A DNA stretch of 55,404 nucleotides from NCBI GenBank assembly GCA_035533615.1, contig DATLTM010000023.1, positions 1-55,404 on the forward strand, given 5' to 3'. This document shows, in pieces, positions 2,284 through 32,055 of the stretch. The position numbers and the translations under genes are program-made. Source of the stretch: Minisyncoccota bacterium. GTDB taxonomy: Bacteria; Patescibacteriota; Minisyncoccia; Phycocordibacterales; Phycocordibacteraceae. Numbering within the stretch: the stretch's first letter is position 1; every line of letters starts with the position of its first letter. Under the pieces are notes generated by a model, which did not search any database, was not told the DNA's origin, and worked only from the letters and a program-made list of their open reading frames with translations.

Positions 2284-2309
2284 TTAATGATGTAAAAATA
2301 CCTTCCCTT

Positions 2310-20422: not shown

Positions 20423-20463
20423 CAAGTAAGACAGGTTTTACACCAAAACGGAATCAAGGTAGC

Positions 20464-20922
20464 ATGAGCTACAAGAAATTTCCTATGGAAAAGAACAAGG
20501 TGTCCTACATCGGCGTTAAAGGTCTCATCGTGAACAATGACGGCAAAGTGCTCATTACTCAAGAGCCGACCCATTTCGTTGGCGGTGGTAAATGGGAACT
20601 GCCAGGAGGGAAGATAGCAAACGGAGAGGAAGAGATACCACTTGAAGAAATCTTACTTCGCGAGATACGAGAAGAATTGGGTGAAGCATTTAAAGTCGAC
20701 GTGAATCACGTTGTAGATATCATGCGTCGTCCCTGGAATAAACCAGGAGCATCAGCAGACCAAGTGATGCTCGCTGTCTATGAATGTCTCTACCGAGGTG
20801 GAGATATTCAATTGAGTGATGAGAATATAAATTTCGCCTGGGTTATTGCCCAAGAGTTACATCAATATGAGTTCATCTCTGGTTACCTTCCCGTACTGGA
20901 GAGATACTTTCGAAAAGATTAG
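20464..20922 (+). CDS. NUDIX hydrolase
   Basis: Nudix box GGKIANGEEEIPLEEILLREIREELGE. Confidence 0.85.
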   Translation: MSYKKFPMEKNKVSYIGVKGLIVNNDGKVLITQEPTHFVGGGKWELPGGKIANGEEEIPLEEILLREIREELGEAFKVDVNHVVDIMRRPWNKPGASADQVMLAVYECLYRGGDIQLSDENINFAWVIAQELHQYEFISGYLPVLERYFRKD

Positions 20923-21258
20923 GCATCCAATTCGACATAACTCCGCAAATCCCCGCTCAGCCACACGGTAATCTGATGCCAATCCCGTCCTACGAGTGCA
21001 ACAGACTAGTGCGACCCATTGTAGAGACCGACACGCGTCAAAATTGGTTCAAGACCGACACGGGTGTCCAGCTATAAAAGCGCATAGTTGCGTGGGGCCA
21101 CACAGCATATACAACATATATATCCAGTACGATTCCGCTACTCACATACTCGGGCACTTTCGTGTTCTAATCACATCAAAATCGAGTCAATTTGAAAGCA
21201 TGGGTAACGGAATCGCACTGAAGTAAAATAAGCATTTCTGCTACACTTAAGGCACCAT

Positions 21259-22407
21259 ATGCGAAGAAACCTTCTTGTATTATCAGGTCTGCTGATTGTG
21301 TCTCTCGCTTTTTTCGTACCTGTGCATCCCGTTTCTGCCCAAACTCAGGATCAAGAAGTGAGCTACATTGAACGTGCGAAAGTGCTCCAAGTCCTCACAC
21401 AGACTATTCAGGACGTGCCAGGCACGCAAACAAGCGAGACGGTACAGACGCTCCAGGCACAGATTCTCGAAGGTCCCGATAAAGGCAAGACAGTTGCGGT
21501 CAATAATGACTATTTAAATCTAAAGCCAGGCGATGAATTCTATGCGAATCATACTGTTGGCGGACAGGATGCTGTAGACGATACGTGGAATGTACAGGAA
21601 CCGTACCGCATCCCGATTTTGGAGATATTAGGTGTGCTTTTCGTTCTTACGATTGTCGTCTTCGGTGGTAAGCAGGGGGTTCGCGGGCTCGTCTCGCTCA
21701 TCGTGAGTCTTGCAGCTATTTTCTATATCCTTCTTCCTGGTATTCTTGCTGGCTATTCGCCAGTGCTTCTTTCAATAGGCATATCTTCATTCATCATCAT
21801 TATTGGCTCATACATAACGCATGGGTTCAATCGGACAACGACTGCAGCCGTACTTGGCATGATTGCAACGATCTGCGTCACGGGTGCGCTCGCATATTGG
21901 TCAGTTCATGCGGCGATGCTCTCCGGCTACAGTTCGGATGAAGTCACGTATCTTCACTTCACGACAAACGGTACGATTGATTTCGTCGGCCTCCTTCTCG
22001 GTGGCATCATGATTGGCTTACTCGGTATCCTCTATGATGCTGCCATCGGTCAAGCAATCGCTGTCGAGGAGTTGAAACGCGCGGCGGCACACTATTCGCA
22101 CTGGGAGTTATATCGTCGAGCGTTGCGCATCGGTCGTGAACATATTGGTGCGCTTATTAACACACTCGCTATCGCGTATGTTGGCGTTTCGTTGCCGCTC
22201 CTACTTCTCCTGCATTTCACCAATATGTCCATTGAAGCTACTATCAATCAGGAAATATTTGCTACCGAAATCATCCGCACGATGGTCGGCAGCATTGGGC
22301 TTATTCTTGCCGTGCCACTCACGACACTCATTTCCGTATGGATGCTTCGCAAAGGAAAACCCTCTGACGCGAAGTCAGAGGGCCACGGTCATTCCCATTC
22401 GCACTAA
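21259..22407 (+). CDS. YibE/F-family membrane protein with a His-rich C-terminal tail
   Basis: Signal/TM helix, an extracytoplasmic ~100-aa domain, then 5-6 TM helices. The tail is SEGHGHSHSH. The family assignment is from recollection of YibE/F architecture. Confidence 0.7.
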   Translation: MRRNLLVLSGLLIVSLAFFVPVHPVSAQTQDQEVSYIERAKVLQVLTQTIQDVPGTQTSETVQTLQAQILEGPDKGKTVAVNNDYLNLKPGDEFYANHTVGGQDAVDDTWNVQEPYRIPILEILGVLFVLTIVVFGGKQGVRGLVSLIVSLAAIFYILLPGILAGYSPVLLSIGISSFIIIIGSYITHGFNRTTTAAVLGMIATICVTGALAYWSVHAAMLSGYSSDEVTYLHFTTNGTIDFVGLLLGGIMIGLLGILYDAAIGQAIAVEELKRAAAHYSHWELYRRALRIGREHIGALINTLAIAYVGVSLPLLLLLHFTNMSIEATINQEIFATEIIRTMVGSIGLILAVPLTTLISVWMLRKGKPSDAKSEGHGHSHSH

Positions 22408-22413
22408 GCTCGA

Positions 22414-23130
22414 CTACATACTCGCCAATCGTATAATCACATACAACGTACCGATGCCGACGACGGTCATGATAGTAGTCCAATGCCTCGGGTGAGAGTG
22501 ATAGCTTTCCGGTATCAAATCGCTCGCACCGATGTAGAGGAAGAAGCCAGAGAAGAGCGCAAGCAACAGCCCGAGCTTGTCTTCCGGTAACACAAATAGA
22601 AGTGTTGAGAGCACGCCTAGAACTGGCGCGATAGCATCAACGAGCAACCACCGAAATGCTTTCGATCTCTCACCTCCGTTCTTAAGAATAAGATTGACGG
22701 TGTTGATGCCATCGGAGAAGTCATGAGTGAGCACTGCAGCCGCAACGACTGCTCCCACGATAGGCGAGACATGAAACGCTAATCCTATACCCACGCCGTC
22801 GAGAAAGCTGTGGAACGACAAACTGCCTGCGCCAGCATTCCCGCGCCGTTCGCCACCGCCTTCATTGTCTGTATGGCCGTGCAGGAGAACCATTCGGTCG
22901 AGAATAAGATAGGTCGTAAATCCGATAACGACCACAGTGAGAACAGTGGAGGCAGAATAGACCTTGCTCGCCAAGTCGAGCGCCTCCGGCAAAAGATCGA
23001 AGAATGCTACACCTATGATTGCTCCAGCACTGAATCCGAGAATCAGATGCAGCTTATCTTTTAGACGAAGTGCAAAGAGACCGCCGAAAAGAGTCGAAAA
23101 GAATGTCGCGATTGTTATGAGGATGACCAT
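22414..23130 (-). CDS. ZIP-family divalent metal transporter (ZupT-like)
   Basis: Contains HSFLDGVGIGLAF and HDFSDGINT motifs, a His-rich loop HGHTDNEGGG and 8 TM segments. Confidence 0.85.
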   Translation of the reverse strand: MVILITIATFFSTLFGGLFALRLKDKLHLILGFSAGAIIGVAFFDLLPEALDLASKVYSASTVLTVVVIGFTTYLILDRMVLLHGHTDNEGGGERRGNAGAGSLSFHSFLDGVGIGLAFHVSPIVGAVVAAAVLTHDFSDGINTVNLILKNGGERSKAFRWLLVDAIAPVLGVLSTLLFVLPEDKLGLLLALFSGFFLYIGASDLIPESYHSHPRHWTTIMTVVGIGTLYVIIRLASM

Positions 23131-23145
23131 AGTGATGTAATTAAT

Positions 23146-23577
23146 TTATACTGCGCATGTTTTGCAGGTTCCAAAGAACTCAAGCGAGTGTTCGCCGAGC
23201 GATGCGAACCTCGTGCTGCTTTTGAGCGCCAGCTTTTCCATATTCTTCTCAGGGCATCCTATAAAGTCTTCGATCGTACCGCATGAGGTGCATACGAGGT
23301 GGTGGTGATGTTCGCCCGACATGACGAGTTCGTAGTCGGTGTGGCCGTGTTGCAGGTCGACTCGCCGCACGATGCCTGTGCTAACAAGAGCGTCGAGCGC
23401 TCGGTATAGAGTTACCGTATCGATATCACCATGCTTCCACTTCGCTTTGATCTCATGAGCGCTCATCGGTTCCTTGAGCTGTGCGAGCAGGGAAATAAGT
23501 CCAAGCCGCTTGGGTGTCACTTTGAGTCCTTGTTTACGGAGCATCTCCGAGTTCTTTTCCGCATGTGTTTTCGACAT
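23146..23577 (-). CDS. Fur-family metalloregulator (Zur-like)
   Basis: Winged-helix N-terminus (VTPKRLGLISLL...) and metal sites HHHHLVCTSCG...CKTCA. It lies upstream of, and is co-oriented with, the ZIP gene. Confidence 0.85.
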   Translation of the reverse strand: MSKTHAEKNSEMLRKQGLKVTPKRLGLISLLAQLKEPMSAHEIKAKWKHGDIDTVTLYRALDALVSTGIVRRVDLQHGHTDYELVMSGEHHHHLVCTSCGTIEDFIGCPEKNMEKLALKSSTRFASLGEHSLEFFGTCKTCAV

Positions 23578-23583
23578 TCTGAT

Positions 23584-23589
23584 ATTATA
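23584..23589 (-). promoter_or_regulatory. putative -10 hexamer TATAAT (minus strand), 6 nt before the fur-family ATG
   Basis: The minus strand reads TTTATAATATCAGAATG. Confidence 0.4.
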
Positions 23590-23592
23590 AAC

Positions 23593-23605
23593 GCAATAGT
23601 ATTGC
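23593..23605. promoter_or_regulatory. perfect 6-1-6 palindrome GCAATA-G-TATTGC immediately upstream of the -10 box; candidate Fur/Zur operator
   Basis: Read directly. It lies in the spacer of the putative promoter of the fur-ZIP operon. Confidence 0.45.
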
Positions 23606-23714
23606 ATCTGCAACTAGAGGGTCTTTTGAAGGTGTATAACGGGCCATTTTGAGGGCTATCCTCGGGTATTGAATTAAACTCGAGCGAGTATCTATGCGAC
23701 GAAAATGGAATAGT

Positions 23715-23790
23715 GCCAGTATGGCCCCCGCAACACGGTTGTGACGCCAGGAACCAGTACCGTTCCCCGTCAAAGTCGGTACTGTACCGG
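23715..23790 (+). promoter_or_regulatory. conserved intergenic element, copy A (candidate cis-regulatory RNA or operator array)
   Basis: Contains CAACACGGTTGTGA (23731..23744), GACGCCAG, AGTACCG...CGGTACT and GTCAAAGTC, all shared with copies B and C. Confidence 0.6.
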
Positions 23791-23856
23791 CGCCTCTGTT
23801 CAGCTAGAAAAGCAATGAGCCTGCATGCATAATTGTATACGAGCTAGACATTTTCA

Positions 23857-23862
23857 TATACT
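23857..23862 (+). promoter_or_regulatory. putative -10 hexamer TATACT, 8 nt before ATG 23871
   Basis: Read directly. Confidence 0.35.
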
Positions 23863-23870
23863 ATTCCTCT

Positions 23871-24866
23871 ATGAGGAAAGCTGGCGTATCATTCCTTATC
23901 GTTTTGTTACTGCTTATTCCGTCAATTTCGTTTGCTGCAGGACTTACTTCTCTACAGGCTACCGCCATTCTCGGTCTTTTAGAGGCTTTCGGTGCGGATA
24001 GCACAGTGATCGCTCAGGTATCGGCCGCACTCGGCGTTAAGCCGGCTAATTCGTCCACTATTTCAACTACCTCTTCTAGCCAATCGAAAGTCACGCCTAC
24101 GGCGCGTCTCTCGGTCATTGGCAGTCCCTTTCCCTCAAGCGGCATCGGCTACGATATCTCCTATAACACGAATGCATTTCCGCAGATGCCATTTGGTTTC
24201 GTAGTCATTGGCGCGACTGCGGGGAAAGCATTCTCCTATAATTCGCACATGCCGTACGAGTTCTCTCTTGGGAAGACTGGTTCCGCAGTTGCTCCAGGCA
24301 TTTATATGAACCTCAATGGGCCCTACGGCTCAAGTGCCGCGACTTCTACGATGAGCACTCCTAAGCAGTGCGCTCTGCTCTTTGGAGCGCCGATGACGTC
24401 AGATTCTACCGGCGGTACCTATCCCGAACCAACGCTTTGTGCAGGCTATAACTACGGGTTTAATGCGGCAAAAAGCGCTTTTGCTTACACTTCGAGTCTC
24501 TCCTATGTTTCTTCGACCCTTTGGTGGCTCGATATCGAGGAGATCAACAGCTGGTCGCCTAATACTGCGGTCAATGATGCTGTAATCCAGGGTGCACTTG
24601 ATTACCTGAACGCGCAAGGAATCCGCGTAGGTATTTACTCGGTGCCTTTTATGTGGAACGACATCGCTGGGGTAGGATTTACGCCGATCGAGTCGTTATA
24701 TGGCGTTGCGACCTCAGTGCCAACGTGGTTTCCAATTGGAACCTCGACGCAAGTCGGCGCTCTCAATTCCTGTCTTGATCATACCTCGTTTATCCCGGGC
24801 AGTCCTGTCTGGGTGATCCAATACGAGCTCGACACTACGTCGGCCGATCAAAATATCGCGTGCTAA
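23871..24866 (+). CDS. secreted protein; the C-terminal domain vaguely resembles glycoside-hydrolase-like TIM barrels (GH25/DUF1906 type)
   Basis: Signal peptide MRKAGVSFLIVLLLLIPSISFAAG, an S/T-rich linker and WWLDIEE...GIRVGIYS motifs. The function call is weak. Confidence 0.55.
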   Translation: MRKAGVSFLIVLLLLIPSISFAAGLTSLQATAILGLLEAFGADSTVIAQVSAALGVKPANSSTISTTSSSQSKVTPTARLSVIGSPFPSSGIGYDISYNTNAFPQMPFGFVVIGATAGKAFSYNSHMPYEFSLGKTGSAVAPGIYMNLNGPYGSSAATSTMSTPKQCALLFGAPMTSDSTGGTYPEPTLCAGYNYGFNAAKSAFAYTSSLSYVSSTLWWLDIEEINSWSPNTAVNDAVIQGALDYLNAQGIRVGIYSVPFMWNDIAGVGFTPIESLYGVATSVPTWFPIGTSTQVGALNSCLDHTSFIPGSPVWVIQYELDTTSADQNIAC

Positions 24867-25014
24867 CCAGATCCGTATCTGCTCAAACATAGTATGTGTG
24901 GAGTATCTATATGAATCAAAAAAGCATCACATCGCTACTTAGATAGCTTGATACCGGTCTCCCTGAGGCTTAGATACGTGAAATAGGCTTTCTCATATGA
25001 TTTGTATATATGGG

Positions 25015-25020
25015 TATAAT
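25015..25020 (+). promoter_or_regulatory. putative -10 hexamer TATAAT, 6 nt before ATG 25027
   Basis: Read directly: TGGGTATAATGAAGTCATG. Confidence 0.4.
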
Positions 25021-25026
25021 GAAGTC

Positions 25027-27573
25027 ATGTCATCATCAGCGAATACAAATAAGAATCTAGCTCTCCAGTTAAACCAATCCGAACTTATTGCCCATCTTCA
25101 AACCTCCCATGAGGGACTAAGTCAGAAAGAGGCAGAAAAACGTCTTCTTGAACATGGTTCGAATGTGATTGGCAAGAAGACCGCGAATGCTTTAGGTGTG
25201 CTAGGTCGGCAGCTAAAAAGCTCGCTTGTGTATTTGCTCGTGATAGCGAGTCTTATTTCATACGGTATTAGAGATTACACCGACGGCACCGTCATTTTGG
25301 TAATCCTCCTCATCAATACATTTCTTGGCTTTTACCAGGAATATAAATCGGAAAAGATAATCGAGAAGCTGTCACAGCTCATCACCAAGCAAGTTCGGCT
25401 GAAGCGTGATGGTAAATCGGTACTTCTTGATGAATCTCAGATCGTCCCAGGCGATGTGCTCACGGTACGCGAAGGAGATATCGTTCCGGCTGATATGCGG
25501 CTTCTTGAAGTCGACTATTTGCAGGTTAATGAATCGCAGTTGACTGGCGAATCAGTTCCTATTATCAAGCGGGTCTCAACCGCATCAAATGCGACACCGG
25601 AAACGCTTCTTTACACCGGTAGCAGCCTTGAAAAGGGTGTCGGTACTGGCGTAGTGTACGCGACGGGAAGAGATACAGGATTGGGAACGATTGCGAAATT
25701 ATCTACCGAGACGAAAAAGCAAACTCAATACGAGAAGTCGGTGCAAGCATTTAGTGTTCTCTTGATGAGAGTTGTGCTGATTGTAGTAGTACTCGTATTT
25801 ATTACTAAACTGCTTCTCAATTCCGGATCGAACATTACCGAGCTGCTCCTGTTCGTCATCGCACTCGCGGTCTCAACCGTGCCGGAAGTGCTACCAGTTA
25901 TTACGACGGTCACGCTTTCAAGTGGTGCGATGAAACTTGTGAAAAGACACGTGGTCGTGAGGCGGCTATCTTCTTTGGAAGATCTCGGCAACGTTAGTTT
26001 GCTGTGCACCGATAAGACGGGGACTCTTACCGAGAATAAGATGGTTATACATTCGATCGCTTCGGACGATGATGACTTATTCCAGAAGCTGATGTACGCG
26101 ACTATAACACCTCTCAAGGGTAGAAAGCGTAGATCACAAAATTCGTATGACGATGCTTTTTTGAATTACATCCCAGAACATGTTCAGCGTGAGGCGAGAG
26201 GATTTTCCATAATCAAAGAGATACCATTCGACCCCGATGCTCGAAGAAACAGGATTATTCTCGAGGACGCGAAGCATCATATGCAGTATCTGGTTGTCGT
26301 GGGAGCTCCGGAAATATTGATGGGTATTTCCATTTCGGGAAAGAAGTTAGCATACTCTTATACCCTTATTGAAGAAGGAAAATCCGGTCTACACCACCTT
26401 GCTTTGGCATACAAGGAAATCACTTATAGAGATGATCTTGACATCTTGAAACATGAACACGGATTGCATTTCTTAGGCTATGCTAGCCTTGAAGACCCGC
26501 TTAGACCGAGTACTAAGATAACTGTTCAACATGCCGAAAAACTCGGTATCAAGATCAAGGTGCTTACGGGTGACAGTAGAGAAGTGGCTGGATATGTTGG
26601 CAAGCAGATCGGACTGGTGCAAGAGAATGAACGAGTGTACATCGGAGACGAATTAGAAGCTATGTCTCCCGAGGAATTCAGTACAGTGGTACTCAGATCG
26701 AATGTCTTTGCGCGTGTTTCTCCCACACAGAAATTCAACATCATCGCTGCACTTAAGAAGGAGTACGTGGTCGCGTATCAGGGTGATGGCATCAATGATG
26801 CCCCCGCATTGAAGCTTGCGGATGTCGCCATCGCTGTTAATACGGCCACCGATATCGCGAAAGAGAGTGCTGATATTGTGCTTTTGAATAAGAGTCTTGA
26901 AGTAATCGTGAACGGCATAAAATACGGTCGGTCAGTTTTCGTGAACATCAATAAGTACATCAAGTACACGATGCTCAATAATTTTGGCATGCTCATCTCG
27001 TTGTCGGTGCTCTATCTATCCTCCGCTGCACTACCGCTTCTTCCCGTTCAAGTACTCCTTAACAATCTCATTGGTGATGTTCCGCTCATCACCGTCTCCT
27101 CAGATACGGTGGATGACGAAGAAGTCGTGCGGCCGGAAAGGCAAAACTCAAAGGAGCTCATGTTCTTAGCACTTGCATTGGGTATACCGACGGCGCTGTT
27201 CGAACTTCTATATTTCTTAGTCATTCATACGCAACCAGAAAAGATTATACAGACAAGTCTTTATGCGTTCTTTACTCTCCAAGCCCTTATCATTTTCTAT
27301 GCGGTACGAAATAAAGATCACTTCTGGAAAGCACAGATGCCTTCTGGGATTTTGAATATTTCTTTTCTCCTGGCGTTTGTATTTTCATTGACAATCATCT
27401 ATCTACCGACATTTCAGACCTGGTTTTCTTTTGTGCCACTTTCCACGATGTCGATTGCGATTATGGTTATCTTCACAATCATTTATTTCCTCGCTACCGA
27501 TTTTGTGAAAGTCTTGTATTACCGAAGAAGTATGCGAAATGGTTCGCAGGCGATTGATACGGCGGTCGCATAA
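25027..27573 (+). CDS. cation-transporting P-type ATPase (type II/III, Mg/Ca-like)
   Basis: Contains TGES, phosphorylation motif CTDKTGTLTENKM, TGDS and GDGINDAPALKLADVAIAV, with 10 TM segments. Confidence 0.9.
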   Translation: MSSSANTNKNLALQLNQSELIAHLQTSHEGLSQKEAEKRLLEHGSNVIGKKTANALGVLGRQLKSSLVYLLVIASLISYGIRDYTDGTVILVILLINTFLGFYQEYKSEKIIEKLSQLITKQVRLKRDGKSVLLDESQIVPGDVLTVREGDIVPADMRLLEVDYLQVNESQLTGESVPIIKRVSTASNATPETLLYTGSSLEKGVGTGVVYATGRDTGLGTIAKLSTETKKQTQYEKSVQAFSVLLMRVVLIVVVLVFITKLLLNSGSNITELLLFVIALAVSTVPEVLPVITTVTLSSGAMKLVKRHVVVRRLSSLEDLGNVSLLCTDKTGTLTENKMVIHSIASDDDDLFQKLMYATITPLKGRKRRSQNSYDDAFLNYIPEHVQREARGFSIIKEIPFDPDARRNRIILEDAKHHMQYLVVVGAPEILMGISISGKKLAYSYTLIEEGKSGLHHLALAYKEITYRDDLDILKHEHGLHFLGYASLEDPLRPSTKITVQHAEKLGIKIKVLTGDSREVAGYVGKQIGLVQENERVYIGDELEAMSPEEFSTVVLRSNVFARVSPTQKFNIIAALKKEYVVAYQGDGINDAPALKLADVAIAVNTATDIAKESADIVLLNKSLEVIVNGIKYGRSVFVNINKYIKYTMLNNFGMLISLSVLYLSSAALPLLPVQVLLNNLIGDVPLITVSSDTVDDEEVVRPERQNSKELMFLALALGIPTALFELLYFLVIHTQPEKIIQTSLYAFFTLQALIIFYAVRNKDHFWKAQMPSGILNISFLLAFVFSLTIIYLPTFQTWFSFVPLSTMSIAIMVIFTIIYFLATDFVKVLYYRRSMRNGSQAIDTAVA

Positions 27574-27600
27574 TCCTTTTATGAGCATCTAGGCCATAGA

Positions 27601-27703
27601 AAGCCCAGTTCGATTATGGACTCGGCAACACGGTTGTGAGCTTGTATCAAGTACCGGCCCCCGTCAGAATTCTCTGAAATCGGGTACAGTACCGACAGAC
27701 ATG
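27601..27703 (+). promoter_or_regulatory. conserved intergenic element, copy B
   Basis: Contains CAACACGGTTGTGA (27626..27639), AGTACCGG...CGGGTAC, an extra hairpin TCAGA-ATTC-TCTGA, and the tail ACAGACAT shared with copy C. Confidence 0.6.
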
Positions 27704-27721
27704 AAGCTCCGAAAAGAAGAC

Positions 27722-27752
27722 AAAAGCCGCGACGTATGTCGCGGCTTTTGTT
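27722..27752 (+). terminator. strong intrinsic-terminator-like hairpin AAAAGCCGCGAC-GTAT-GTCGCGGCTTTT followed by GTT
   Basis: 12-bp perfect stem, GC-rich core and flanking A/T tracts, so it could act in both directions. It lies between copy B and the isochorismatase-family gene. Confidence 0.7.
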
Positions 27753-27791
27753 ATGAATGATCTTCCACTGAAGGTGGTAATATAAGAACAT

Positions 27792-28364
27792 ATGAACGAT
27801 GTATCCATTGATGTATCAAAAACAGCACTCGTAGTCATCGATCTGCAGAAAGGTATCGTGGGACGACACGTGGCCCCCTATACATCCGAAATCATTATAA
27901 AAAATGCTGCAACACTTGCCGATGTGTTCAGAAAGAAAGGAATGCCAGTATTTCTCGTGCGGGTCACACCGTCTCCAGACGGCAAGGATGCATTACATCC
28001 AATCGCTGATATGGCATTGCAGATGCAAACACCGCCATCAGATTGGGCGGATATTGTTCACGAATTGGGGCCGAAACCAGGCGATTTTATTATCACGAAG
28101 CATCAATGGGGTGCTTTTTATGGTACCGAGCTCGATCTGGAATTCAGACGGCGAGGTATTGTGACTATGGTGCTTTGCGGCATCTCGACGAATATCGGAG
28201 TCGAGAGCACTGCGCGATTCGCATATGAATATGGCTATCAACAAATCTTTGCGGAGGATGCAATGTCTGCTCTATCTGCCGAAGAACATGTCTTCACCAC
28301 CACTAAAATATTCCCACGCATCGGTCTTGTGAGGAAGACTGAAGAAATAATAGCTGCTTTATAA
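27792..28364 (+). CDS. isochorismatase-family cysteine hydrolase
   Basis: Contains TALVVIDLQKGIV and catalytic-Cys context VLCGISTNIGVESTAR. Confidence 0.85.
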   Translation: MNDVSIDVSKTALVVIDLQKGIVGRHVAPYTSEIIIKNAATLADVFRKKGMPVFLVRVTPSPDGKDALHPIADMALQMQTPPSDWADIVHELGPKPGDFIITKHQWGAFYGTELDLEFRRRGIVTMVLCGISTNIGVESTARFAYEYGYQQIFAEDAMSALSAEEHVFTTTKIFPRIGLVRKTEEIIAAL

Positions 28365-28427
28365 ATCGTTTTAACCAAAGAAGAAATGGGCGTCGGAATG
28401 GAACAAAAAGTCTGAGTATTTAAGGCG

Positions 28428-28523
28428 TGGGAAGTCCGGTTCAATTAGGGTTCCACAACATGGTTGTGACGCCAGAAATAAGTACAGTTTCTCATCAAAG
28501 TCAGTGCAGCTACTGTCAGACAT
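28428..28523 (+). promoter_or_regulatory. conserved intergenic element, copy C
   Basis: Contains CAACATGGTTGTGACGCCAG (28456..), AGTACAG, ATCAAAGTC, ACTGT and the tail TCAGACAT. Confidence 0.6.
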
Positions 28524-28614
28524 CCATCCCGGCTTAACCTAGCAATAACCAGAGATGCTTGCAGTTTTATTGTCGTATGATATGCTTAGAAAGCCTAAGT
28601 AATAATGATTTCTC

Positions 28615-29886
28615 ATGCGTGAACGATTTATTGTGGTGCTTTCATACCTCTCAAAACCAGTGATCGCGCTCGGTGGTGCCGTCATCCTCGCAGCGACGGC
28701 CATCGGTTTAGCCTGGCAATCGGGCATCGTTGTGCCGTCTGGGCAGTATACGGCAGCGGTCGTCGCTCCGATTACCGGACAGGGTGGCGCAAGTTCGGAT
28801 CTCTCTTTCCAAGTGCCTGGGCAGGTCGTCGCTATACCGGTCACTACCGGACAGAAAGTCTCCGTCGGTACAACGCTCGTTGTACTTGATCAATCCGCAC
28901 TTCTCGCAACTCGCGCCGGAGCGGTCGCAAATCTCGAAGCAGCGCAGGCAAATCTTGCGGCGCTTGAGGCTGGCACGCGTCCTGAGCAACTCGCAATCGA
29001 CCAGACGGCCGTTACGCAAGCGGCCAATGCGCTTATGACAGCCCTCACGGCGGCTTATACGAATGCTGATGATGCCGTGCATGCGAAAGCCGATCAGGTC
29101 TTCATCAATCCGAGAAATGCAACCGCACAGCTCACGATTCTCGTACCTGATGCAGCGCTCGTGACCCGCGTCCAGACCGAGCGCATAGCACTCGAACCGA
29201 TATTCTCCTCGTGGAGCGCTGTACTCGCGTCTGCAGCAACTAATCCCGAGAGCGCCGCGGCCCCGTCCGAGGCGAACATGAAGACGATCACGACATTTCT
29301 CAATGATCTCACGATAGCCCTCGCGGAGGCATTGCCAGGCAACTCTATTTCTACGGCGACGATTACGGGCTATCAGACGAGCGTGAACACTGGACGTCTG
29401 AACATGCTTGCGGCGCTTTCTAATCTCGTTACGGCTGATACTGCATACAAGGCGGCTGTCGGCGCGCTTACGCTCGCACAGGCGGGGGCGACGCAGAATG
29501 ACCTCGACGCGCAAAAAGCGGTTGTCGACGCCGCGCAGGCGGCGCTTCGCGGCGTCGACGTATCTCTGCAAGAATCCACTCTTGTTGCGCCTCTAGCAGG
29601 CACGATTACCGCGATGAATGCCCGCCTCGGCCAGACCGTCGCCCCTGGCCAGATCCTCGTCTCAATTGAATCGTCCGGGGGGAGTAAACCGAGCGCGCTT
29701 GTGGTGCCGACGAGCAGCGTCATTGCAGATGGCAACCAGGCGTTCGTATATGTGAAGCAGGGAGCCGGTGCGCCGGTGGAAACGCCAGTCACGACTGGTC
29801 TTGTGAGTGCAAGTGGCATGACAGAGATTGTTTCAGGACTCGTCGCGGGGCAGGAGGTATTGACTTTTGGCACGGCTGGAAAATAA
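28615..29886 (+). CDS. HlyD-family membrane fusion / periplasmic adaptor protein
   Basis: N-terminal TM helix, biotinyl-lipoyl-like hairpin (VSVGTTLVVLD; APLAGTITAM), a long Ala-rich coiled coil and a beta-barrel C-terminus. Confidence 0.8.
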   Translation: MRERFIVVLSYLSKPVIALGGAVILAATAIGLAWQSGIVVPSGQYTAAVVAPITGQGGASSDLSFQVPGQVVAIPVTTGQKVSVGTTLVVLDQSALLATRAGAVANLEAAQANLAALEAGTRPEQLAIDQTAVTQAANALMTALTAAYTNADDAVHAKADQVFINPRNATAQLTILVPDAALVTRVQTERIALEPIFSSWSAVLASAATNPESAAAPSEANMKTITTFLNDLTIALAEALPGNSISTATITGYQTSVNTGRLNMLAALSNLVTADTAYKAAVGALTLAQAGATQNDLDAQKAVVDAAQAALRGVDVSLQESTLVAPLAGTITAMNARLGQTVAPGQILVSIESSGGSKPSALVVPTSSVIADGNQAFVYVKQGAGAPVETPVTTGLVSASGMTEIVSGLVAGQEVLTFGTAGK

Positions 29887-29889
29887 CCT

Positions 29890-30507
29890 ATGACATCACT
29901 TCGCACACGAATAATCTATATCGGAGGAACCGCACTTCTCATTATCTTGAGTGGTTTGGCGACGGCTTATTTCATCATTACGAGTACTCGCGTATCGGTG
30001 GATATGGCGAGTATTGAGGCACCACTCATCAGCCTCATGCCGTCCGCGCCTGGTCACCTCGGCGCGCTCTACGTGCACACGGGCGATACCGTTGCCGCCA
30101 ATCAGCCGGTGGCACTCGTTGGTACGCAGGTTATTACGAGTCGGGTAGCGGGTCTTATTGTTGCGGTGGATAACGAAGTTGGTGCCGAAGTGGGAGCCGA
30201 TACGGCTGTCGTGACGATGATCGATCCAACGCAGCTGCGTGTTGTTGGGAGTATTGATGAGAACAAAGGTCTTGCACAGATACGTGTCGGTGACCCGGTT
30301 ACCTTCACGGTCGACGCATTCGGTGGGCAGACTTTTACTGGCATCATCGACGAGATTGCGCCGACGTCTAATCAGTCCGGTATCGTTTTTAATATTTCGG
30401 ATCAGCGCCAGGTTCAGCAGTTCGACGTGAAGGCGCGGTTCGATACGAGCGCATACCCCGAGCTCAGGAATGGTATGTCAGCACGCATGGTGATTTACAC
30501 GCGGTAG
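29890..30507 (+). CDS. short HlyD-like adaptor protein (no coiled-coil hairpin)
   Basis: N-terminal TM helix, lipoyl-like motif (GDTVAANQPVALVG...RVAGLIVAV) and a beta-barrel. Confidence 0.65.
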   Translation: MTSLRTRIIYIGGTALLIILSGLATAYFIITSTRVSVDMASIEAPLISLMPSAPGHLGALYVHTGDTVAANQPVALVGTQVITSRVAGLIVAVDNEVGAEVGADTAVVTMIDPTQLRVVGSIDENKGLAQIRVGDPVTFTVDAFGGQTFTGIIDEIAPTSNQSGIVFNISDQRQVQQFDVKARFDTSAYPELRNGMSARMVIYTR

Positions 30508-30518
30508 CGCGCCACGTT

Positions 30519-32048
30519 ATGGCGGGCACTCTGCAGCAAAACGCGGCTCATCGGCTCACGGGACACCCGTGGCTTGTGCTCGCGACCGTGATGGTGGGCA
30601 CGCTTCTCATCGGTCTCGACCGTACTGTTGTAAATCTCGCAATGCCGAAAATCATGGGCGATTTCGGTATTACGGTCAGCACGGCGGCGTGGATTGCGAC
30701 TGCCTACATTATTAGCAATGCCATCTTCGTGCCGGTGTTCGGTAAGCTTGGTGATCTTTTCGGCAATCGCGTCATCTACCTCTGGAGCTTTGTTGGGTTC
30801 ATCGGCGTATCCATGCTCGCTGGTTTTTCGTGGAATTTCAGCTCACTCATAGTTTTTCGTGTTCTGCAGGGGTTGGTTGGTGCAGCTGTCTATCCCACCG
30901 CCATGTCGCTCATCGCTAAGTCATTCGCCAATCCTAAGGCCCGCGCCCAAGCGCTCGGCATCTGGTCGTCGTCTTTCGCGATATCCGCGGTCATCGGACC
31001 CTTGCTCGGCGGCTACCTTGTTGATAATTTCAATTGGCGCTGGATCTTTTTCATCAATATGCCGGTTGGTATCGCAGGACTCATCATGACACTCATCTTC
31101 TTACCGCATGACCGGCCCGGGGAGCGGGGATCTTTCGACTGGTTCGGTGCTGTGCTTCTCTCGGGGGCCATTACGAGCCTCGTACTTGTGGTTGATCAAG
31201 GTCAGAACTGGGGTTGGCTCTCTTTGGCGAGCATGCTCTGCTACTTCGGCACGCTCATATTTGGCATATTCGTTTATATGTGGGAGACGCGCCATATACA
31301 TCCCATTATTGACTTTAAGTTCTTCAGCAATCCGGTCATCGTTTCGGTGCTTGCGGTCTCGTTTATCTCCTTCGGAGGCATGATGGGCGCGATGCTCCTC
31401 TTGCCGGTATTCGCGCAGACATTTCTGCAATATACCGCAACACAGAGTGGGTATATCTTTGTGCCGATGGCGCTCGCGCTCCCGGTTTTCGCGCCTCTGG
31501 GAGCGCGACTCGCGAATTCCTTCCATCCGCGCTATACGGTTTCGTTTGGGATGGCGCTCTCCGCCCTCGGTCTATTCCTCCTCATGAACCTCGATCCGGC
31601 GATGACATCGTATGATTTCATCCTGCCGCTTGTGCTCTTTGGTGCCGGTCTCGGGCTTGGTATGGCACCCCTTACGAGTGCAGCGACAACGGCTGTTCCG
31701 CTCCACGAAGTCGGCATGTCATCCGGGCTCCTGAACCTCACGCGGAACATTGGTGGGGCATTCGGTATTGCCGTGTTCAGCACCATCCTCGCCAGTGCCA
31801 CCAATGCAAACGTGCTTATGGTAGCGCAGAACTCGCACATACTCGGTTCATCCCCAACAATCCTCGCCGAAGGAGCCCAACTCATTATCATGAAAGCGGA
31901 ACTTCTTTCTTACAGCACGGTCTTCGGTTACGCGGCCGCATCAATGCTTCTCGGCGCGCTCATTGCTCTCTTTTTCTTAAAGACGACGACCGCTGGCGGG
32001 GAAGATATCCCACCGGAGATACTAGCGGAAGCTGCAGCGGGTGGATAA
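30519..32048 (+). CDS. MFS drug:H+ antiporter, DHA2 (EmrB/QacA, 14-TM) family
   Basis: Contains LDRTVVNLAMPKI and GKLGDLFGNR motifs and ~14 hydrophobic segments. Confidence 0.9.
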   Translation: MAGTLQQNAAHRLTGHPWLVLATVMVGTLLIGLDRTVVNLAMPKIMGDFGITVSTAAWIATAYIISNAIFVPVFGKLGDLFGNRVIYLWSFVGFIGVSMLAGFSWNFSSLIVFRVLQGLVGAAVYPTAMSLIAKSFANPKARAQALGIWSSSFAISAVIGPLLGGYLVDNFNWRWIFFINMPVGIAGLIMTLIFLPHDRPGERGSFDWFGAVLLSGAITSLVLVVDQGQNWGWLSLASMLCYFGTLIFGIFVYMWETRHIHPIIDFKFFSNPVIVSVLAVSFISFGGMMGAMLLLPVFAQTFLQYTATQSGYIFVPMALALPVFAPLGARLANSFHPRYTVSFGMALSALGLFLLMNLDPAMTSYDFILPLVLFGAGLGLGMAPLTSAATTAVPLHEVGMSSGLLNLTRNIGGAFGIAVFSTILASATNANVLMVAQNSHILGSSPTILAEGAQLIIMKAELLSYSTVFGYAAASMLLGALIALFFLKTTTAGGEDIPPEILAEAAAGG

Positions 32049-32055
32049 TACATCT

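What the first reader, a model, noticed from the sequence alone, without database searches (positions are those of the whole stretch)
23715..28523. Conserved structured intergenic element present in three copies within 5 kb, each 140-166 nt upstream of a plus-strand gene start
**Positions**
- Copy A is at 23715..23790, copy B at 27601..27703 and copy C at 28428..28523.
- All share the box CAACA[C/T]GGTTGTGA (at 23731, 27626 and 28456). Each box contains a CAAC-N3-GTTG dyad.
- A and C also share GACGCCAG.

**Candidate pairings**
- Each copy has an AGTAC[C/A]G box with a complementary box downstream: CGGTACT in A, CGGGTAC in B and ACTGT in C.
- A and C share [GA]TCAAAGTC.
- B and C share a GTTC[GA]ATTA[TG]GG head and a CAGACAT tail.
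- At one position A can pair GGAAC/GTTCC where C can pair AGAAA/TTTCT, which looks like compensatory change.
- B carries an extra hairpin, TCAGA-ATTC-TCTGA.

**Downstream genes**
- Copy A precedes a secreted hydrolase-like protein, with the P-type ATPase further downstream.
- Copy B precedes an isochorismatase-family hydrolase.
- Copy C precedes the HlyD-HlyD-MFS-MarR efflux operon.

**Interpretation**
- I do not recognise the element as any riboswitch or repeat family I know.
- It could be a novel cis-regulatory RNA or riboswitch, a family of small RNA genes, or a composite operator (for example for the MarR encoded at 32056).
- One caveat applies. If the downstream genes are leaderless, as their -10 boxes suggest, the element lies upstream of those promoters and would act at the DNA level or as a separate transcript.
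Basis: seen in the sequence. Interest (0 to 1): 0.75.

Follow-up and report, generated by a model that had tools for sequence, protein, structure and literature searches.

The report
Cassette-boundary repeats beside initiator tRNA
The three look-alike intergenic elements are real, but they are not switches for the genes that follow: they are copies of the tail of the initiator-tRNA gene plus its conserved downstream sequence, and they mark the joints between horizontally acquired gene cassettes stacked next to that tRNA gene, an arrangement shared by many ultra-small (Patescibacteria/CPR) bacteria and apparently not yet described.

Summary
**Observation:** confirmed. There are three + strand copies (nhmmer E 8e-24 to 2e-14), plus a fourth, divergent copy at about 20975-21090.

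**Riboswitch or 5'-leader reading:** fails.
- Rfam gives no hit.
- The proposed helices show no covariation.
- In 79 genome loci and 80 metagenome loci the element sits directly after a tRNA-fMet(CAU) gene, or after a T-arm/acceptor look-alike.
- 71% of copies are followed by an intrinsic terminator.
- In 21% of cases the next gene is on the opposite strand.

**What it is.**
- Upstream synteny is conserved: ligA, gatC, gatA, a 190-aa ORF, then tRNA-fMet.
- Downstream lies a hypervariable array of 1-4-gene cassettes separated by element copies.
- In the window the array runs from the tRNA (20352-20423) to copy C (about 28530) and is 5-10 points lower in GC than its flanks.

**Evidence for recombination at the element.**
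- Homology between relatives breaks inside the element.
- Half-site joints map to the CA dinucleotide just 3' of the tRNA.
- The only recurrent recombinase is a large serine recombinase, found in a minority of arrays.

**Best reading:** recombination (att-like) plus terminator modules of a tRNA-fMet-anchored cassette platform.

- The descriptive part is well supported.
- The recombinase and the mechanism are inferred.

The parts
20352..20423 (+). tRNA-Met(CAU) gene with a 1:72 mismatch (initiator-like). It anchors the array. Its 3' end ...CCGGTTCGATTCCGGCCCCCGCAACA is the sequence mimicked by the left part of the repeats. Here it is followed by AGTAAGAC... (cassette 1) instead of CGGTTGTGA.
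   Evidence: Rfam tRNA, 58.9 bits. ARAGORN. Sequence read. The same tRNA precedes the element in most loci.
20464..20922 (+). Cassette 1 cargo: NUDIX hydrolase.
   Evidence: Pfam PF00293. NUDIX is the most frequent cargo family in arrays elsewhere.
20975..21090 (+). Copy 0, a divergent (subfamily 2) repeat. It reads left module GCCAATCCCGTCCTACGAGTGCAACA | GACTAGTGCGACC ... GAGACCG - GTCAAAATTGG - TTCAAGACCGA ... AGCTATAAAAGCGCATAG.
   Evidence: nhmmer 21027-21082, E = 0.006. Sequence read. The same left module occurs in L010 and L027. The same trailer subfamily follows tRNA-fMet in L103, L139, L141 and L168.
21259..23613 (.). Cassette 2 cargo: YibE/F-like (+), ZIP transporter (-) and Fur-family regulator (-).
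   Evidence: Pfam. The same three genes plus the first 32 nt of copy A are 77% identical in L060, where they are low-GC against a 63-66% GC flank.
23684..23813 (+). Copy A. It has a degenerate T-arm/acceptor-like left module (to 23730), the box CAACACGGTTGTGA (23731-23744), then the trailer CGCCAGGAACCAGTACCG - TTCCCCGTCAAAGT - CGGTACTGTACCG and a tail. The terminator is lost.
   Evidence: 82 bits. No terminator found. The trailer is near-identical to those in L010, L011, L019, L036 and L052.
23871..27573 (+). Cassette 3 cargo: a 331-aa secreted protein of unknown family and a P-type ATPase.
   Evidence: Pfam and NCBIfam. Homologues of both recur in arrays of other genomes (clusters 8 and 11).
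27580..27715 (+). Copy B. It has left module TGAGCATCTAGGCCATAGAAAGCCCAGTTCGATTATGGACTCGGCAAC, the box at 27626-27639, and a 'type 2' trailer with the extra hairpin TCAGAATTCTCTGA.
   Evidence: 56 bits. The same left module occurs in L020, L028, L034, L035, L054 and L074. The same trailer type occurs in L006, L020, L032, L048, L053, L054, L064 and L072.
27724..27755 (+). Intrinsic terminator belonging to copy B: AAAAGCCGCGAC-GTAT-GTCGCGGCTTTTGTT.
   Evidence: An equivalent terminator follows 80 of 113 copies, with more than 25 different complementary stems.
27792..28364 (+). Cassette 4 cargo: isochorismatase-family hydrolase.
   Evidence: Pfam PF00857.
28387..28532 (+). Copy C, the terminal copy of the array. 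It has an inverted T-loop-like unit TGGGCGTCGGAATGGAAC (28387-28404), left module GTCCGGTTCAATTAGGGTTCCACAAC, the box at 28456-28469, and a diverged trailer without a clear terminator.
   Evidence: (52 bits). GC content returns to flank level (53-55%) immediately after it.
28615..32517 (+). HlyD-HlyD-MFS-MarR operon. Its composition is native, so it is probably flank rather than cassette.
   Evidence: Pfam. GC 53-55%, like the region upstream of the tRNA. Homologous operons in L026 and L060 have no element beside them.

Best explanation
The elements are boundary (att-like) modules of a gene-cassette array anchored at the initiator tRNA gene. This is a hot spot for horizontally acquired DNA shared by many Patescibacteria.

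**Anatomy of a module.**
- (i) A left part that copies or mimics the T-arm and acceptor 3' strand of tRNA-fMet and ends in GCAA.
- (ii) The dyad CAAC-AYG-GTTGTG.
- (iii) An almost invariant 20 nt, ACGCCAGGAACCAGTACCG.
- (iv) A variable short hairpin.
- (v) GGTAC-N-GTACCG.
- (vi) Usually a Rho-independent terminator.

**Proposed mechanism.**
- Incoming DNA recombines at or next to the CA dinucleotide just 3' of the tRNA's discriminator base.
- Each newcomer is therefore inserted between the tRNA and the older cassettes.
- Each newcomer brings its own trailer and terminator on its left side and a tRNA-end mimic on its right side.
- The terminator insulates each cassette, which then uses its own promoter.

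**Candidate catalyst.** The candidate is a large serine recombinase (LSR), encoded in some arrays and possibly acting in trans elsewhere.

**Status of each step.**
- *Shown:* the linkage to the tRNA, the array structure, the hypervariable cargo, the compositional island, homology breaks inside the element, and the selected terminator.
- *Inferred:* site-specific recombination, the CA crossover point, and the serine recombinase as catalyst.
For: **Linkage to tRNA-fMet.**
- A genome-wide pattern scan gave 79 loci. About 63 are Patescibacteria, often with 2-4 copies per 8 kb.
- In 41 of 88 copies the box directly continues a tRNA-fMet 3' end. Further cases follow tRNA-fMet genes that carry group I introns.

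**Conserved flank, variable array.**
- Upstream synteny ligA-gatC-gatA-190aa-tRNA is conserved in 32 loci. Downstream ORFs fall into 335 clusters out of 539 ORFs and 170 Pfam families out of 148 representatives.
- An unbiased metagenome sample taken through the 190-aa protein shows alternative states of the same site: tRNA plus a plain terminator, tRNA plus element, and arrays. Of 24 loci with at least 8 kb downstream, 10 carry 1-3 copies.

**Island signature in the window.** The island from 20.4 to 28.5 kb has 44-50% GC, against 52-58% before it and 53-55% after copy C.

**Breaks inside the element.**
- L060 shares YibE-ZIP-Fur plus copy A up to AGTACC at 77% identity. It then diverges into a 63-66% GC flank.
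- L028 has tRNA-el-[2 genes]-el followed by the homologue of window gene 32530-34047.
- Half-site joints:
  - GCAACA|AG... at the window tRNA, in L048 and in L148.
  - GGGTG|CACGGTTGTGA in L054, L078 and L148.
  - A left module joined to the plain native terminator in L077.

**Trailer travels with the downstream cargo.** The 600-aa gene of cluster 26 lies 198-217 nt after the same trailer type. That arrangement sits next to the tRNA in L041 and L066, but is internal in L057.

**Selected terminator.** 80 of 113 copies have one, with more than 25 different complementary stems.

**Sequence conservation without covariation.** The conserved motifs are palindromes with 3-nt and 1-nt spacers and show no covariation. 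This fits recognition of double-stranded DNA by a protein.

**Recombinase.**
- LSRs (Resolvase + Recombinase + Zn_ribbon_recom) are the only recurrent recombinase.
- They are always convergent with the tRNA.
- They occur in 9 pattern-derived loci and in 4 of 24 long unbiased loci.

**Horizontal transfer.** Near-identical 100-nt modules occur in MAGs labelled Saccharibacteria, Kaiserbacteria, Paceibacterota and Parcubacteria.
Against: - No recombinase lies inside the window's island. The nearest LSR (2256-3980) sits by a tRNA-Ser 16 kb away.
- Most arrays seen contain no LSR within the DNA available.
- No excised circle or empty-versus-filled pair of otherwise identical strains was found. All same-strain contigs are collinear.
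- Copy number does not follow a simple 'n cassettes, n+1 sites' rule. The window tRNA lacks a trailer, and L060 has no copy between its ATPase and HlyD genes.
- Homology also breaks at a second place (AGTACC), and there are deletions between the AGTACCG repeats in L014, L023, L028, L029, L032 and L037. This could equally reflect homologous or illegitimate recombination.
- The GCAACAAG flank could be a diverged homologue of GCAACACG rather than a recombination joint.
- Repeats longer than 100 nt at both ends are not typical of serine-integrase attL and attR sites.
- The conserved YCAAA-loop hairpin and the terminator show that the module is transcribed, so an RNA-level role is not excluded.
Confidence: 0.6

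Rival explanations
1. A structured non-coding RNA: a 3' trailer of tRNA-fMet, co-transcribed with the tRNA, released by tRNA 3' processing and ended by its own terminator. Its function would be at the RNA level (for example a 3'-ETS-type small RNA or a processing or regulatory element). The internal copies keep a T-arm/acceptor mimic as a processing handle. Arrays would then be a by-product.
For: - The element directly follows the tRNA and precedes a selected terminator, so it is transcribed.
- The architecture 'AG(T/A)ACCG - hairpin with YCAAA loop - AG(T/A)ACCG' is kept in two sequence subfamilies.
- Variable-length hairpins are inserted at fixed positions: L075, L136, L112 and type 2 copies.
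- One compensatory pair occurs in a variant hairpin, GCAGGAA/TTCCTGC versus GCCGGAA/TTCCGGC.
- The T-stem of internal copies shows some compensated changes.
Against: - There is no covariation above controls for the core helices, and inner pairs are unpaired in more than half of sequences.
- Folding energies are not different from shuffles.
- The best-conserved dyads have 3-nt and 1-nt spacers, which cannot form RNA hairpins as such.
- The box hairpin would compete with the tRNA acceptor stem.
- About a quarter of sampled tRNA-fMet loci have only a plain terminator, so the element is not a universal part of the tRNA transcript.
- An RNA function alone does not explain why unrelated cassettes are interleaved with copies only at this locus.
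Confidence: 0.15
2. The same cassette array, but without a dedicated site-specific recombinase. The conserved 100-200-nt modules would act as homology anchors, so that cassettes are swapped by RecA-type homologous recombination after natural DNA uptake.
For: - Modules are long and at least 85% identical between lineages.
- Trailers are mosaics of segment types.
- Homology breaks occur at more than one position within the element.
- Most arrays lack a recombinase gene.
- The window carries a type IV pilus/competence-like cluster just upstream (gene table).
Against: - Half-site joints share only GCAACA or CA (window tRNA, L048, L148, L077). These are too short for homologous recombination.
- Left modules fall into at least 4 unrelated classes joined to the same right part at the same nucleotide.
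- LSR genes recur at this locus.
Confidence: 0.15
3. A composite transcription-factor operator (MarR, Fur/Zur or another dimeric regulator) that controls the downstream promoters.
For: There are two perfect or near-perfect dyads, CACAAC-N3-GTTGTG and GGTAC-N-GTACC. MarR and Fur-family genes lie nearby in the window.
Against: - The element is tied to the tRNA-fMet 3' end in about 100 loci whose neighbouring genes are unrelated and mostly lack MarR or Fur.
- A terminator lies between the dyads and the next gene.
- The Fur gene has its own separate palindrome at 23593-23605.
Confidence: 0.04
4. A riboswitch or cis-regulatory 5' leader of the downstream genes.
For: In the window each copy lies 140-166 nt upstream of a + strand gene. 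Copy B is followed by a terminator, as in attenuation-type riboswitches.
Against: See the first-reader verdict: variable and often opposite-strand downstream genes, attachment to a tRNA 3' end, no covariation, no Rfam family, no excess stability.
Confidence: 0.02
5. A MITE/REP-like dispersed repeat that happens to be clustered here.
For: It is a multi-copy, roughly 100-200-nt non-coding unit with internal dyads and inverted T-loop-like units. The roughly 75-nt core looks like an insertion between the tRNA and its native terminator.
Against: - All copies are in one orientation and confined to the region downstream of tRNA-fMet.
- There is none elsewhere in the 55-kb window.
- Only one locus was hit in the near-complete genomes sampled, such as the 993-kb chromosome OY969413.1.
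- No terminal inverted repeats or target-site duplications were seen.
Confidence: 0.04

Closest known systems
Tandem genomic islands at tRNA/tmRNA genes made by serine recombinases, for example the Dehalococcoides ssrA-specific islands (PMC3146451; from the abstract and my own knowledge)
   Same: - Integration at the 3' end of a single-copy small-RNA gene.
- Tandem accretion of islands separated by direct repeats of that 3' end.
- Variable adaptive cargo.
- A serine recombinase associated with the islands.
   Different: - Units here are mostly 1-4 genes (median spacing 1.8 kb), and most lack their own recombinase.
- The repeat is over 100 nt, extends well beyond the tRNA and includes a terminator.
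- The target is the initiator tRNA.
- The hosts are Patescibacteria.
Tycheposons of Prochlorococcus (bioRxiv 10.1101/2020.12.28.424599; abstract and my own knowledge)
   Same: - Streamlined genomes.
- tRNA-anchored hypervariable islands built by serial integration.
- Partial tRNA repeats left at the joints.
- Cargo of niche-adaptive genes.
   Different: - Tycheposons are defined by their own integrase plus replication modules, and none is seen in most units here.
- The conserved trailer/terminator module and the tRNA-minihelix-like left hairpins are not a tycheposon feature.
Integrons (attI/attC gene-cassette arrays)
   Same: - Small, mostly single-orientation cassettes.
- A structured, imperfectly palindromic site of about 60-150 nt at each joint.
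- New cassettes apparently enter next to a fixed anchor.
- Cargo is extremely diverse.
- AAC...GTT is present at the presumed crossover.
   Different: - There is no IntI tyrosine recombinase and no attI/Pc.
- The anchor is a tRNA gene.
- The sites are conserved in sequence rather than only in structure.
- The AAC and GTT boxes are 3 nt apart rather than at the two ends of the site.
- Each joint carries a terminator, so cassettes must carry their own promoters.
- 21% of next genes are on the opposite strand.
Staphylococcal cassette chromosome (SCC) composite islands at rlmH
   Same: - Large serine recombinases (Ccr).
- Insertion at the 3' end of a conserved housekeeping gene.
- Tandem composite arrays that include recombinase-less pseudo-elements mobilised in trans, separated by direct repeats.
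   Different: - SCC repeats are about 15-18 bp and lie inside a protein gene.
- SCC elements are 20-60 kb.
- SCC has no tRNA mimicry and no terminator module.
Classical tyrosine-integrase islands in tRNA genes (Islander/TIGER definition, PMC4383910)
   Same: A displaced copy of the tRNA 3' part marks island ends, and the target tRNA gene is kept intact.
   Different: - No recurrent tyrosine integrase was found.
- The apparent 'anticodon-loop' fragments turned out to be group I introns.
- The exchange point lies just outside the tRNA.

Membership tests
Riboswitch / cis-regulatory leader RNA | Match to a curated RNA family | tested here: not met
   Rfam 15 gave no hit at gathering threshold and only chance-level hits (E > 6) over 23500-28700. 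The 18 related loci gave none either.
Riboswitch / cis-regulatory leader RNA | Consistent position in the 5' UTR of a functionally coherent gene set | tested here: not met
   The next gene is on the opposite strand in 15 of 73 cases. Distances range from 81 to 2726 nt, and a terminator usually intervenes. Cargo spans 170 Pfam families.
Riboswitch / cis-regulatory leader RNA | Helices supported by covariation | tested here: not met
On 42 sequences the covariation score is 0.060 against a shuffled mean of 0.067 (454/500 shuffles as high).
Rho-independent terminator (as a component) | G+C-rich hairpin followed by a T tract, with the stem maintained by compensatory change | tested here: met
   Copy B has one at 27724-27755. 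80 of 113 copies have one, with more than 25 distinct complementary stems. Copies A and C have lost it.
tRNA-gene-anchored genomic island / integration hot spot | Conserved flank on one side of a tRNA gene and variable, compositionally distinct DNA on the other | tested here: met
   The ligA-gatC-gatA-190aa-tRNA flank is conserved in 32 loci, against 335 clusters downstream. The window island has 44-50% GC against 52-58% in the flank.
tRNA-gene-anchored genomic island / integration hot spot | Direct repeats of the tRNA 3' part at island joints | tested here: met
   Internal copies carry GTTCGATT...CC(C/G)GCAAC look-alikes of the T-arm and acceptor. These are diverged mimics rather than exact displaced fragments.
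tRNA-gene-anchored genomic island / integration hot spot | Integrase gene within or next to each island | tested here: not met
   There is none in the window island. LSRs occur in 9 of about 63 pattern-derived loci and in 4 of 24 long unbiased loci. There is no recurrent tyrosine integrase.
Serine-integrase att site | Imperfect dyad of about 40-50 bp around a non-palindromic central dinucleotide shared by the partner sites | tested here: inconclusive
   There is a dyad of about 50 bp, GGTTCGATTCCGG..CAAC-ACG-GTTG..CCAGGAACC (my reading). Half-site joints overlap on CA. No biochemical or excision evidence exists.
Integron | intI tyrosine recombinase with adjacent attI and Pc promoter | tested here: not met
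   The array starts at a tRNA gene preceded by gatA and a 190-aa ORF, and the array proteins contain no recurrent tyrosine integrase.
Integron | attC: R''(RYYYAAC)...R'(GTTRRRY) at the two ends of a 57-141-nt imperfect palindrome, conserved in structure and not in sequence | tested here: not met
   AAC and GTT are 3 nt apart, and GTTGTGA does not fit GTTRRRY. The core is conserved in sequence (84% mean column identity). Left modules do form long imperfect hairpins ending at GCAAC, so the resemblance is partial.
MITE / REP-type dispersed repeat | Many copies dispersed over the genome in both orientations, with terminal inverted repeats or target duplications | tested here: not met
   Copies occur only downstream of tRNA-fMet and in one orientation, with none elsewhere in the 55-kb window. 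Near-complete genomes were hit at a single locus. Whole genomes were not scanned with a sensitive model.

The most novel reading that the evidence does not exclude
Patescibacteria possess an integron-like but mechanistically distinct gene-capture platform.

- The initiator-tRNA gene serves as the fixed attachment site.
- Promoter-bearing mini-cassettes of 1-4 genes are inserted one after another at the CA dinucleotide behind the tRNA.
- Insertion is by a serine recombinase acting largely in trans.
- Each cassette carries a composite site that mimics the tRNA's T-arm/acceptor minihelix on one side. On the other side it carries a conserved trailer plus terminator.
- The same modules circulate between classes as distant as Saccharibacteria and Parcubacteria/Paceibacterota. 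They would therefore be a main route of horizontal gene transfer in these reduced genomes.
Probability: 0.35. Interest if true: 0.8.

Novelty: new variant of a known kind. Interest (0 to 1): 0.6.

Why it matters
Patescibacteria (CPR) have tiny genomes and few recognised mobile elements, and how they acquire accessory genes is poorly understood. A conserved cassette array at the initiator-tRNA gene could be such a route. Its junction modules are shared almost identically by distant lineages. Its cargo includes transporters, NUDIX and Ham1 house-cleaning enzymes, Fic toxins, AAA/Abi-like defence proteins and aminoacyl-tRNA synthetase paralogues.

Practical consequences:
- **A marker for flexible genes.** The box plus AGTACCG motif would locate the flexible gene pool in MAGs.
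- **Assembly breaks.** It explains why assemblies often break at this tRNA.
- **A testable substrate.** It offers a compact natural recombination site and a candidate serine recombinase for experiments.
- **A caution for RNA discovery.** Repeated, palindrome-rich intergenic elements upstream of genes can be recombination scars rather than riboswitches.

Tried and rejected
1. **Rfam.** Searched at gathering and permissive thresholds on the window and on 18 related loci. No family was found for the element.
2. **Single-sequence and alignment folding.** There was no excess stability, and RNAalifold gave only a weak 4-bp long-range pairing at -1.5 kcal/mol.
3. **Tyrosine-integrase crossover in the anticodon loop.** I first read AGTGGTAAG|CATAACC... 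and ...AAAAG|AACCTCC... as partial tRNA copies from such a crossover. I rejected this because they are 3' exons of tRNA-fMet genes interrupted by group I introns.
4. **Excised circular cassette.** The two 1044-bp contigs holding only the isochorismatase gene looked promising. They are collinear fragments 27604-28648 with no terminal overlap.
5. **Strain-level cassette polymorphism.** Exact-protein look-ups found only identical arrangements. Several contigs do break at the tRNA or at copies B and C.
6. **Phage, plasmid and IMG/VR collections.** The element gave no match.
7. **att-like boxes upstream of LSR genes.** None was found.
8. **tRNA-Ser/LSR locus at 2.2-3.9 kb.** It has no element-like flank.
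9. **Overlapping loci.** Loci from the same contig do not overlap, so longer arrays could not be stitched together.
10. **Literature.** Searches for a prior description in Patescibacteria or Saccharibacteria found none. This covers the open-access library only.

Full report
**1. The observation**

The 14-nt box CAACAYGGTTGTGA is at 23731, 27626 and 28456 on the + strand. It occurs nowhere else in the window, even with two mismatches allowed. The three regions align over 100-130 nt, and A and C share 53 nt at 81% identity. A profile HMM built from homologues in other genomes hits them at E = 8e-24, 5e-16 and 2e-14. It also picks up a fourth, weaker copy at 21027-21082. The copies are real and far beyond chance.

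**2. The element is not a known RNA and does not behave like a structured leader**

- Rfam 15 finds only tRNAs in the window. It finds nothing relevant in 23500-28700 at E <= 10.
- Folding energies of the three copies, on either strand, do not differ from dinucleotide shuffles. For the + strand z = -1.4, -1.5 and +0.1.
- I tested 42 non-redundant homologues (alignment A5).
  - The box hairpin and the outer GTACCG/CGGTAC stem are almost invariant.
  - The inner pairs are unpaired in more than half of the sequences.
  - The covariation score is not above the shuffle control (454 of 500 shuffles are as high).
- The best-conserved features are palindromes with 3-nt and 1-nt spacers: CACAAC-N3-GTTGTG and GGTAC-N-GTACC. 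These are poor RNA hairpins but typical of sites bound by a protein as double-stranded DNA (my inference).

**3. What the element is attached to**

I scanned one genome per species with CAACAYGGTTGTGA-N8-13-AGTAC. This returned 79 loci, of which about 63 are from Patescibacteria MAGs labelled Saccharibacteria, Kaiserbacteria, Paceibacterota, Minisyncoccia, Nomurabacteria or Adlerbacteria. Many hold 2-4 copies within 8 kb. The rest (Streptomyces, Methanolobus and others) are chance matches.

- In most loci the box is the direct continuation of a 72-nt tRNA-Met(CAU) gene with a 1:72 mismatch, which is initiator-like...GACGCCGGTTCGATTCCGGCCCCCGCA|ACACGGTTGTGACGCCAGGAACCAGTACCG....
- Cases that looked like partial tRNA copies starting in the anticodon loop are tRNA-fMet genes split by group I introns.
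- The same tRNA gene is in the window at 20352-20423.
- Copies that do not follow the tRNA carry a look-alike of its T-arm and acceptor 3' strand, for example GTCCAGTTCGATTATGGACCCGGCAAC.
- These look-alikes are often preceded by one or two inverted T-loop-like units (TGGGCGTCGGAATCGAAC; window 28387-28404). Together they can form a long imperfect hairpin ending at GCAAC.
- At least four unrelated classes of left module are joined to the same right part at the same nucleotide.

**4. Anatomy of the right part**

- After the box come about 20 almost invariant nucleotides (ACGCCAGGAACCAGTACCG).
- Next is a short variable hairpin whose loop is usually YCAAA(A).
- Then comes (C)AGTAC-N-GTACCG, followed by a tail that exists in several discrete types.
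- The module ends in an intrinsic terminator.
- A terminator-like perfect hairpin with a T tract is present in 80 of 113 copies, with more than 25 different complementary stem sequences. It is therefore under selection.
- In the window only copy B keeps its terminator (27724-27755). A and C have lost theirs.
- A second sequence subfamily has the same architecture: CAYGGTAGTGCGGCC...CAGACCG - hairpin - GTTCAAGACCGA. It follows tRNA-fMet in L103, L139, L141 and L168. The window's fourth copy (about 20975-21090) belongs to it.

**5. Genomic context: a cassette array**

- Upstream of the tRNA, synteny is conserved in 32 loci: ligA, gatC, gatA and a roughly 190-aa membrane protein without a Pfam family.
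- Downstream everything varies.
  - 539 ORFs fall into 335 clusters.
  - Every cluster found in many loci lies upstream.
  - 148 downstream cluster representatives hit 170 Pfam families, led by NUDIX, peptidoglycan-binding, AAA_15/AAA_21, hydrolases and methyltransferases. A Fic-HTH protein forms the largest cluster.
- Element copies separate groups of 1-4 genes. The median box-to-box spacing is 1757 nt.
- The next gene is on the opposite strand in 15 of 73 cases. When it is on the same strand it starts 81-2726 nt from the box, with a median of 262 nt.

I also drew an unbiased sample of the locus from metagenomes, using the 190-aa protein as bait.

- It shows alternative states of one site:
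  - tRNA followed at once by a plain terminator (about ten loci);
  - tRNA plus element;
  - tRNA plus a roughly 200-nt module plus element;
  - arrays.
- Of 24 loci with at least 8 kb downstream, 10 carry 1-3 copies.

**6. The window**

The order of features is as follows.

| Feature | Coordinates or content |
|---|---|
| tRNA-fMet | 20352-20423 |
| Cassette 1 | NUDIX |
| Copy 0 | about 20975-21090 |
| Cassette 2 | YibE/F, ZIP, Fur |
| Copy A | box at 23731 |
| Cassette 3 | 331-aa secreted protein, P-type ATPase |
| Copy B with terminator | box at 27626 |
| Cassette 4 | isochorismatase |
| Copy C | box at 28456 |
| Flank | HlyD-HlyD-MFS-MarR |

GC content is 52-58% from 4 to 20 kb, 44-50% from 20 to 28 kb, and 53-55% from 28 kb onward. 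The compositionally foreign segment therefore runs from the tRNA to copy C, and the efflux operon looks like native flank.

Comparisons with relatives support this.

- **L028:** it has tRNA-el-[2 genes]-el followed by the homologue of window gene 32530-34047.
- **L026:** it has tRNA-el-ATPase ... HlyD-HlyD-MFS.
- **L060:**
  - It shares YibE-ZIP-Fur and copy A up to ...CCAGTACC at 77% identity.
  - The two sequences then part.
  - The shared segment is 50-52% GC, embedded in a 63-66% GC flank.
  - The element is therefore the edge of a horizontally transferred block.

**7. Where exchange happens**

*Left-only joints.*
- The window tRNA reads ...CCCCCGCAACA|AGTAAGAC.
- L048 has a left module ...GGACCCGGCAACA|AGGTCAGAC running straight into the 3' end of a recombinase gene.
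- L148 reads tRNA...GCAACA|AGCG... and, 66 nt later...GGGTG|CACGGTTGTGACGCC.

*Right-only and terminal joints.*
- The same 'foreign left | CACGG' joint is in L054 and L078.
- L077 has a left module joined to the plain terminator that follows the tRNA in element-free genomes...GGGCAACA|CGCAAAGCAAAAGCCGCC....

The two kinds of half-site overlap only on the CA dinucleotide immediately 3' of the discriminator base.

*Trailer and cargo move together.*
- The right part travels with the cargo downstream of it. The 600-aa gene of cluster 26 lies 198-217 nt after the same trailer type. That unit sits next to the tRNA in L041 and L066, but is internal in L057.

*A second break point.*
- Similarity ends at AGTACC in L014, L023, L029 and L060.
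- There are deletions between the two AGTACCG repeats in L028, L032 and L037.

*Caveat.* GCAACAAG may partly be a diverged homologue of GCAACACG.

**8. Recombinase**

- The largest downstream protein cluster in the pattern-derived loci is a large serine recombinase with Resolvase + Recombinase + Zn_ribbon_recom domains. It is always on the strand convergent with the tRNA and sometimes immediately follows the first copy, as in L039 and L044.
- In the unbiased sample, 4 of 24 long loci have such a gene 0.5-8 kb downstream of tRNA-fMet.
- The window has one only at 2256-3980, convergent with a tRNA-Ser.
- No tyrosine integrase family appears among the recurrent cargo.
- The recombinase assignment is therefore a candidate, not a finding. 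A host Xer-type enzyme or homologous recombination cannot be excluded.

**9. Interpretation**

- *Well supported (descriptive).* The three elements are junction repeats of a tRNA-fMet-anchored, hypervariable cassette array that recurs across Patescibacteria. Each repeat is built from a tRNA-3'-end mimic, a conserved trailer and, originally, a terminator.
- *Inferred (mechanistic).* The mechanism would be site-specific insertion at the CA behind the tRNA, catalysed by a serine recombinase often acting in trans, with terminators insulating promoter-bearing cassettes.
- *RNA alternative.* An RNA-level role for the trailer remains possible, because it is transcribed and keeps a hairpin with a conserved loop. 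Covariation does not support it, and it would not by itself explain the arrays.

**10. Comparison with known systems and novelty**

The closest analogues are listed below.

- Serine-recombinase islands stacked at the tmRNA gene of Dehalococcoides (PMC3146451).
- Tycheposons (10.1101/2020.12.28.424599).
- SCC composite islands.
- Integron cassette arrays, conceptually.

The system described here differs from all of them in five respects.

- Cassette size.
- The lack of a recombinase in most units.
- A junction module of over 100 nt that extends beyond the tRNA and includes a terminator.
- Left modules that mimic the tRNA.
- The host group.

Five full-text searches found no description of this system in Patescibacteria. 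The element is absent from phage, plasmid and IMG/VR collections. I rate it a new variant of a known kind, namely a tRNA-anchored integration hot spot with att-type repeats.

**11. Limits**

- Taxon labels come from MAG record titles.
- Loci are at most 8-20 kb long.
- The genome scan required an exact 19-nt pattern, so prevalence is underestimated and biased towards one subfamily.
- ORFs in related loci were called mechanically.
- No excision product or empty-versus-filled strain pair was observed.

Noticed in passing
window 23593-23605 (and the homologous position in L060): A perfect 6-1-6 palindrome GCAATA-G-TATTGC lies just upstream of the divergently transcribed Fur-family gene (23146-23613, - strand). 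It is conserved as GCAATACTATTGC in L060. It is probably the Fur/Zur box of the ZIP-Fur operon, and it is distinct from the repeat element.
   Followed up: partly
window 2256-3980 (+) and 3822-3911 (-): A large serine recombinase gene (Resolvase + Recombinase + Zn_ribbon_recom) converges on the 3' end of a tRNA-Ser(GCT) gene. The first 2 kb of the window have only 38% GC. This looks like a separate integrated element at tRNA-Ser. The recombinase is 27-37% identical to those found downstream of tRNA-fMet in metagenome loci L103, L106, L117 and L124.
   Followed up: partly
L015 2661-2910, L075 6544-6746 (-), L011 6671-6885 (-), and by sequence also L019, L025, L030, L032, L036, L037, L040, L045, L052, L053, L058, L059, L064, L069: Many Patescibacteria tRNA-fMet genes carry group I introns in the anticodon loop, of at least two types with different insertion points. 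ARAGORN misses these genes.
   Followed up: partly
window 19662-20237 and cluster 0 in 32 loci (alignment A3): A roughly 190-aa predicted membrane protein with no Pfam or NCBIfam family. It has an invariant C-terminal motif (W-R-x-A-I-I-E-A-D-I-M-L ... A-W-E-A-H-K-V-R-N-x-I-A-H). It always lies between gatA and tRNA-fMet, and more than 500 relatives occur in metagenomes.
   Followed up: no
L018, L042, L043, L050, L065, L068, L075, L077 (about 170 nt upstream of the box): A conserved, apparently structured non-coding module of about 150-170 nt, the 'class II left module'. It runs GGTACAGTACCG...CCGACCCATACCGGCCCCCATCG..AAGGGGGAAG...GGGTACAGTACCGNCNNGGGCAAC. It is bracketed by GTACAGTACCG repeats and has no Rfam match. 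It is not present in the window.
   Followed up: no
L012, L132, L136, L140 (between tRNA-fMet and the element): A module of about 200 nt follows the tRNA's own terminator. It begins with an inverted copy of the tRNA-fMet acceptor/T-arm (TTGCGGGGG...GTCCGGAATCGAA) and ends with CCCCCGCAAC. The whole unit can therefore close with the tRNA's acceptor stem.
   Followed up: no
L068 6392-6510 (-): A LOOT RNA (RF03000, 78 bits) lies in an intergenic region about 3.5 kb from the element copies. It is unrelated to them.
   Followed up: no
window 20373, 27604/27605, 28499, 28648 (ends of contigs L082, L083, L089, L090, L091): Independent assemblies of the same population break repeatedly inside the tRNA-fMet gene and at copies B and C. 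This suggests sequence shared with co-occurring genomes or strain variation at these points.
   Followed up: partly
window 11619-11773 and 12079-12233: A 155-nt direct repeat (82% identity) lies within two adjacent N-terminal-methylation (pilin-like) genes of a type IV pilus/T2SS-like cluster. These are paralogous pilins.
   Followed up: no
window 23862-23876: The start codon of the 331-aa gene lies in the loop of a perfect dyad, TTCCTC-TAT-GAGGAA. There is no obvious Shine-Dalgarno sequence.
   Followed up: no
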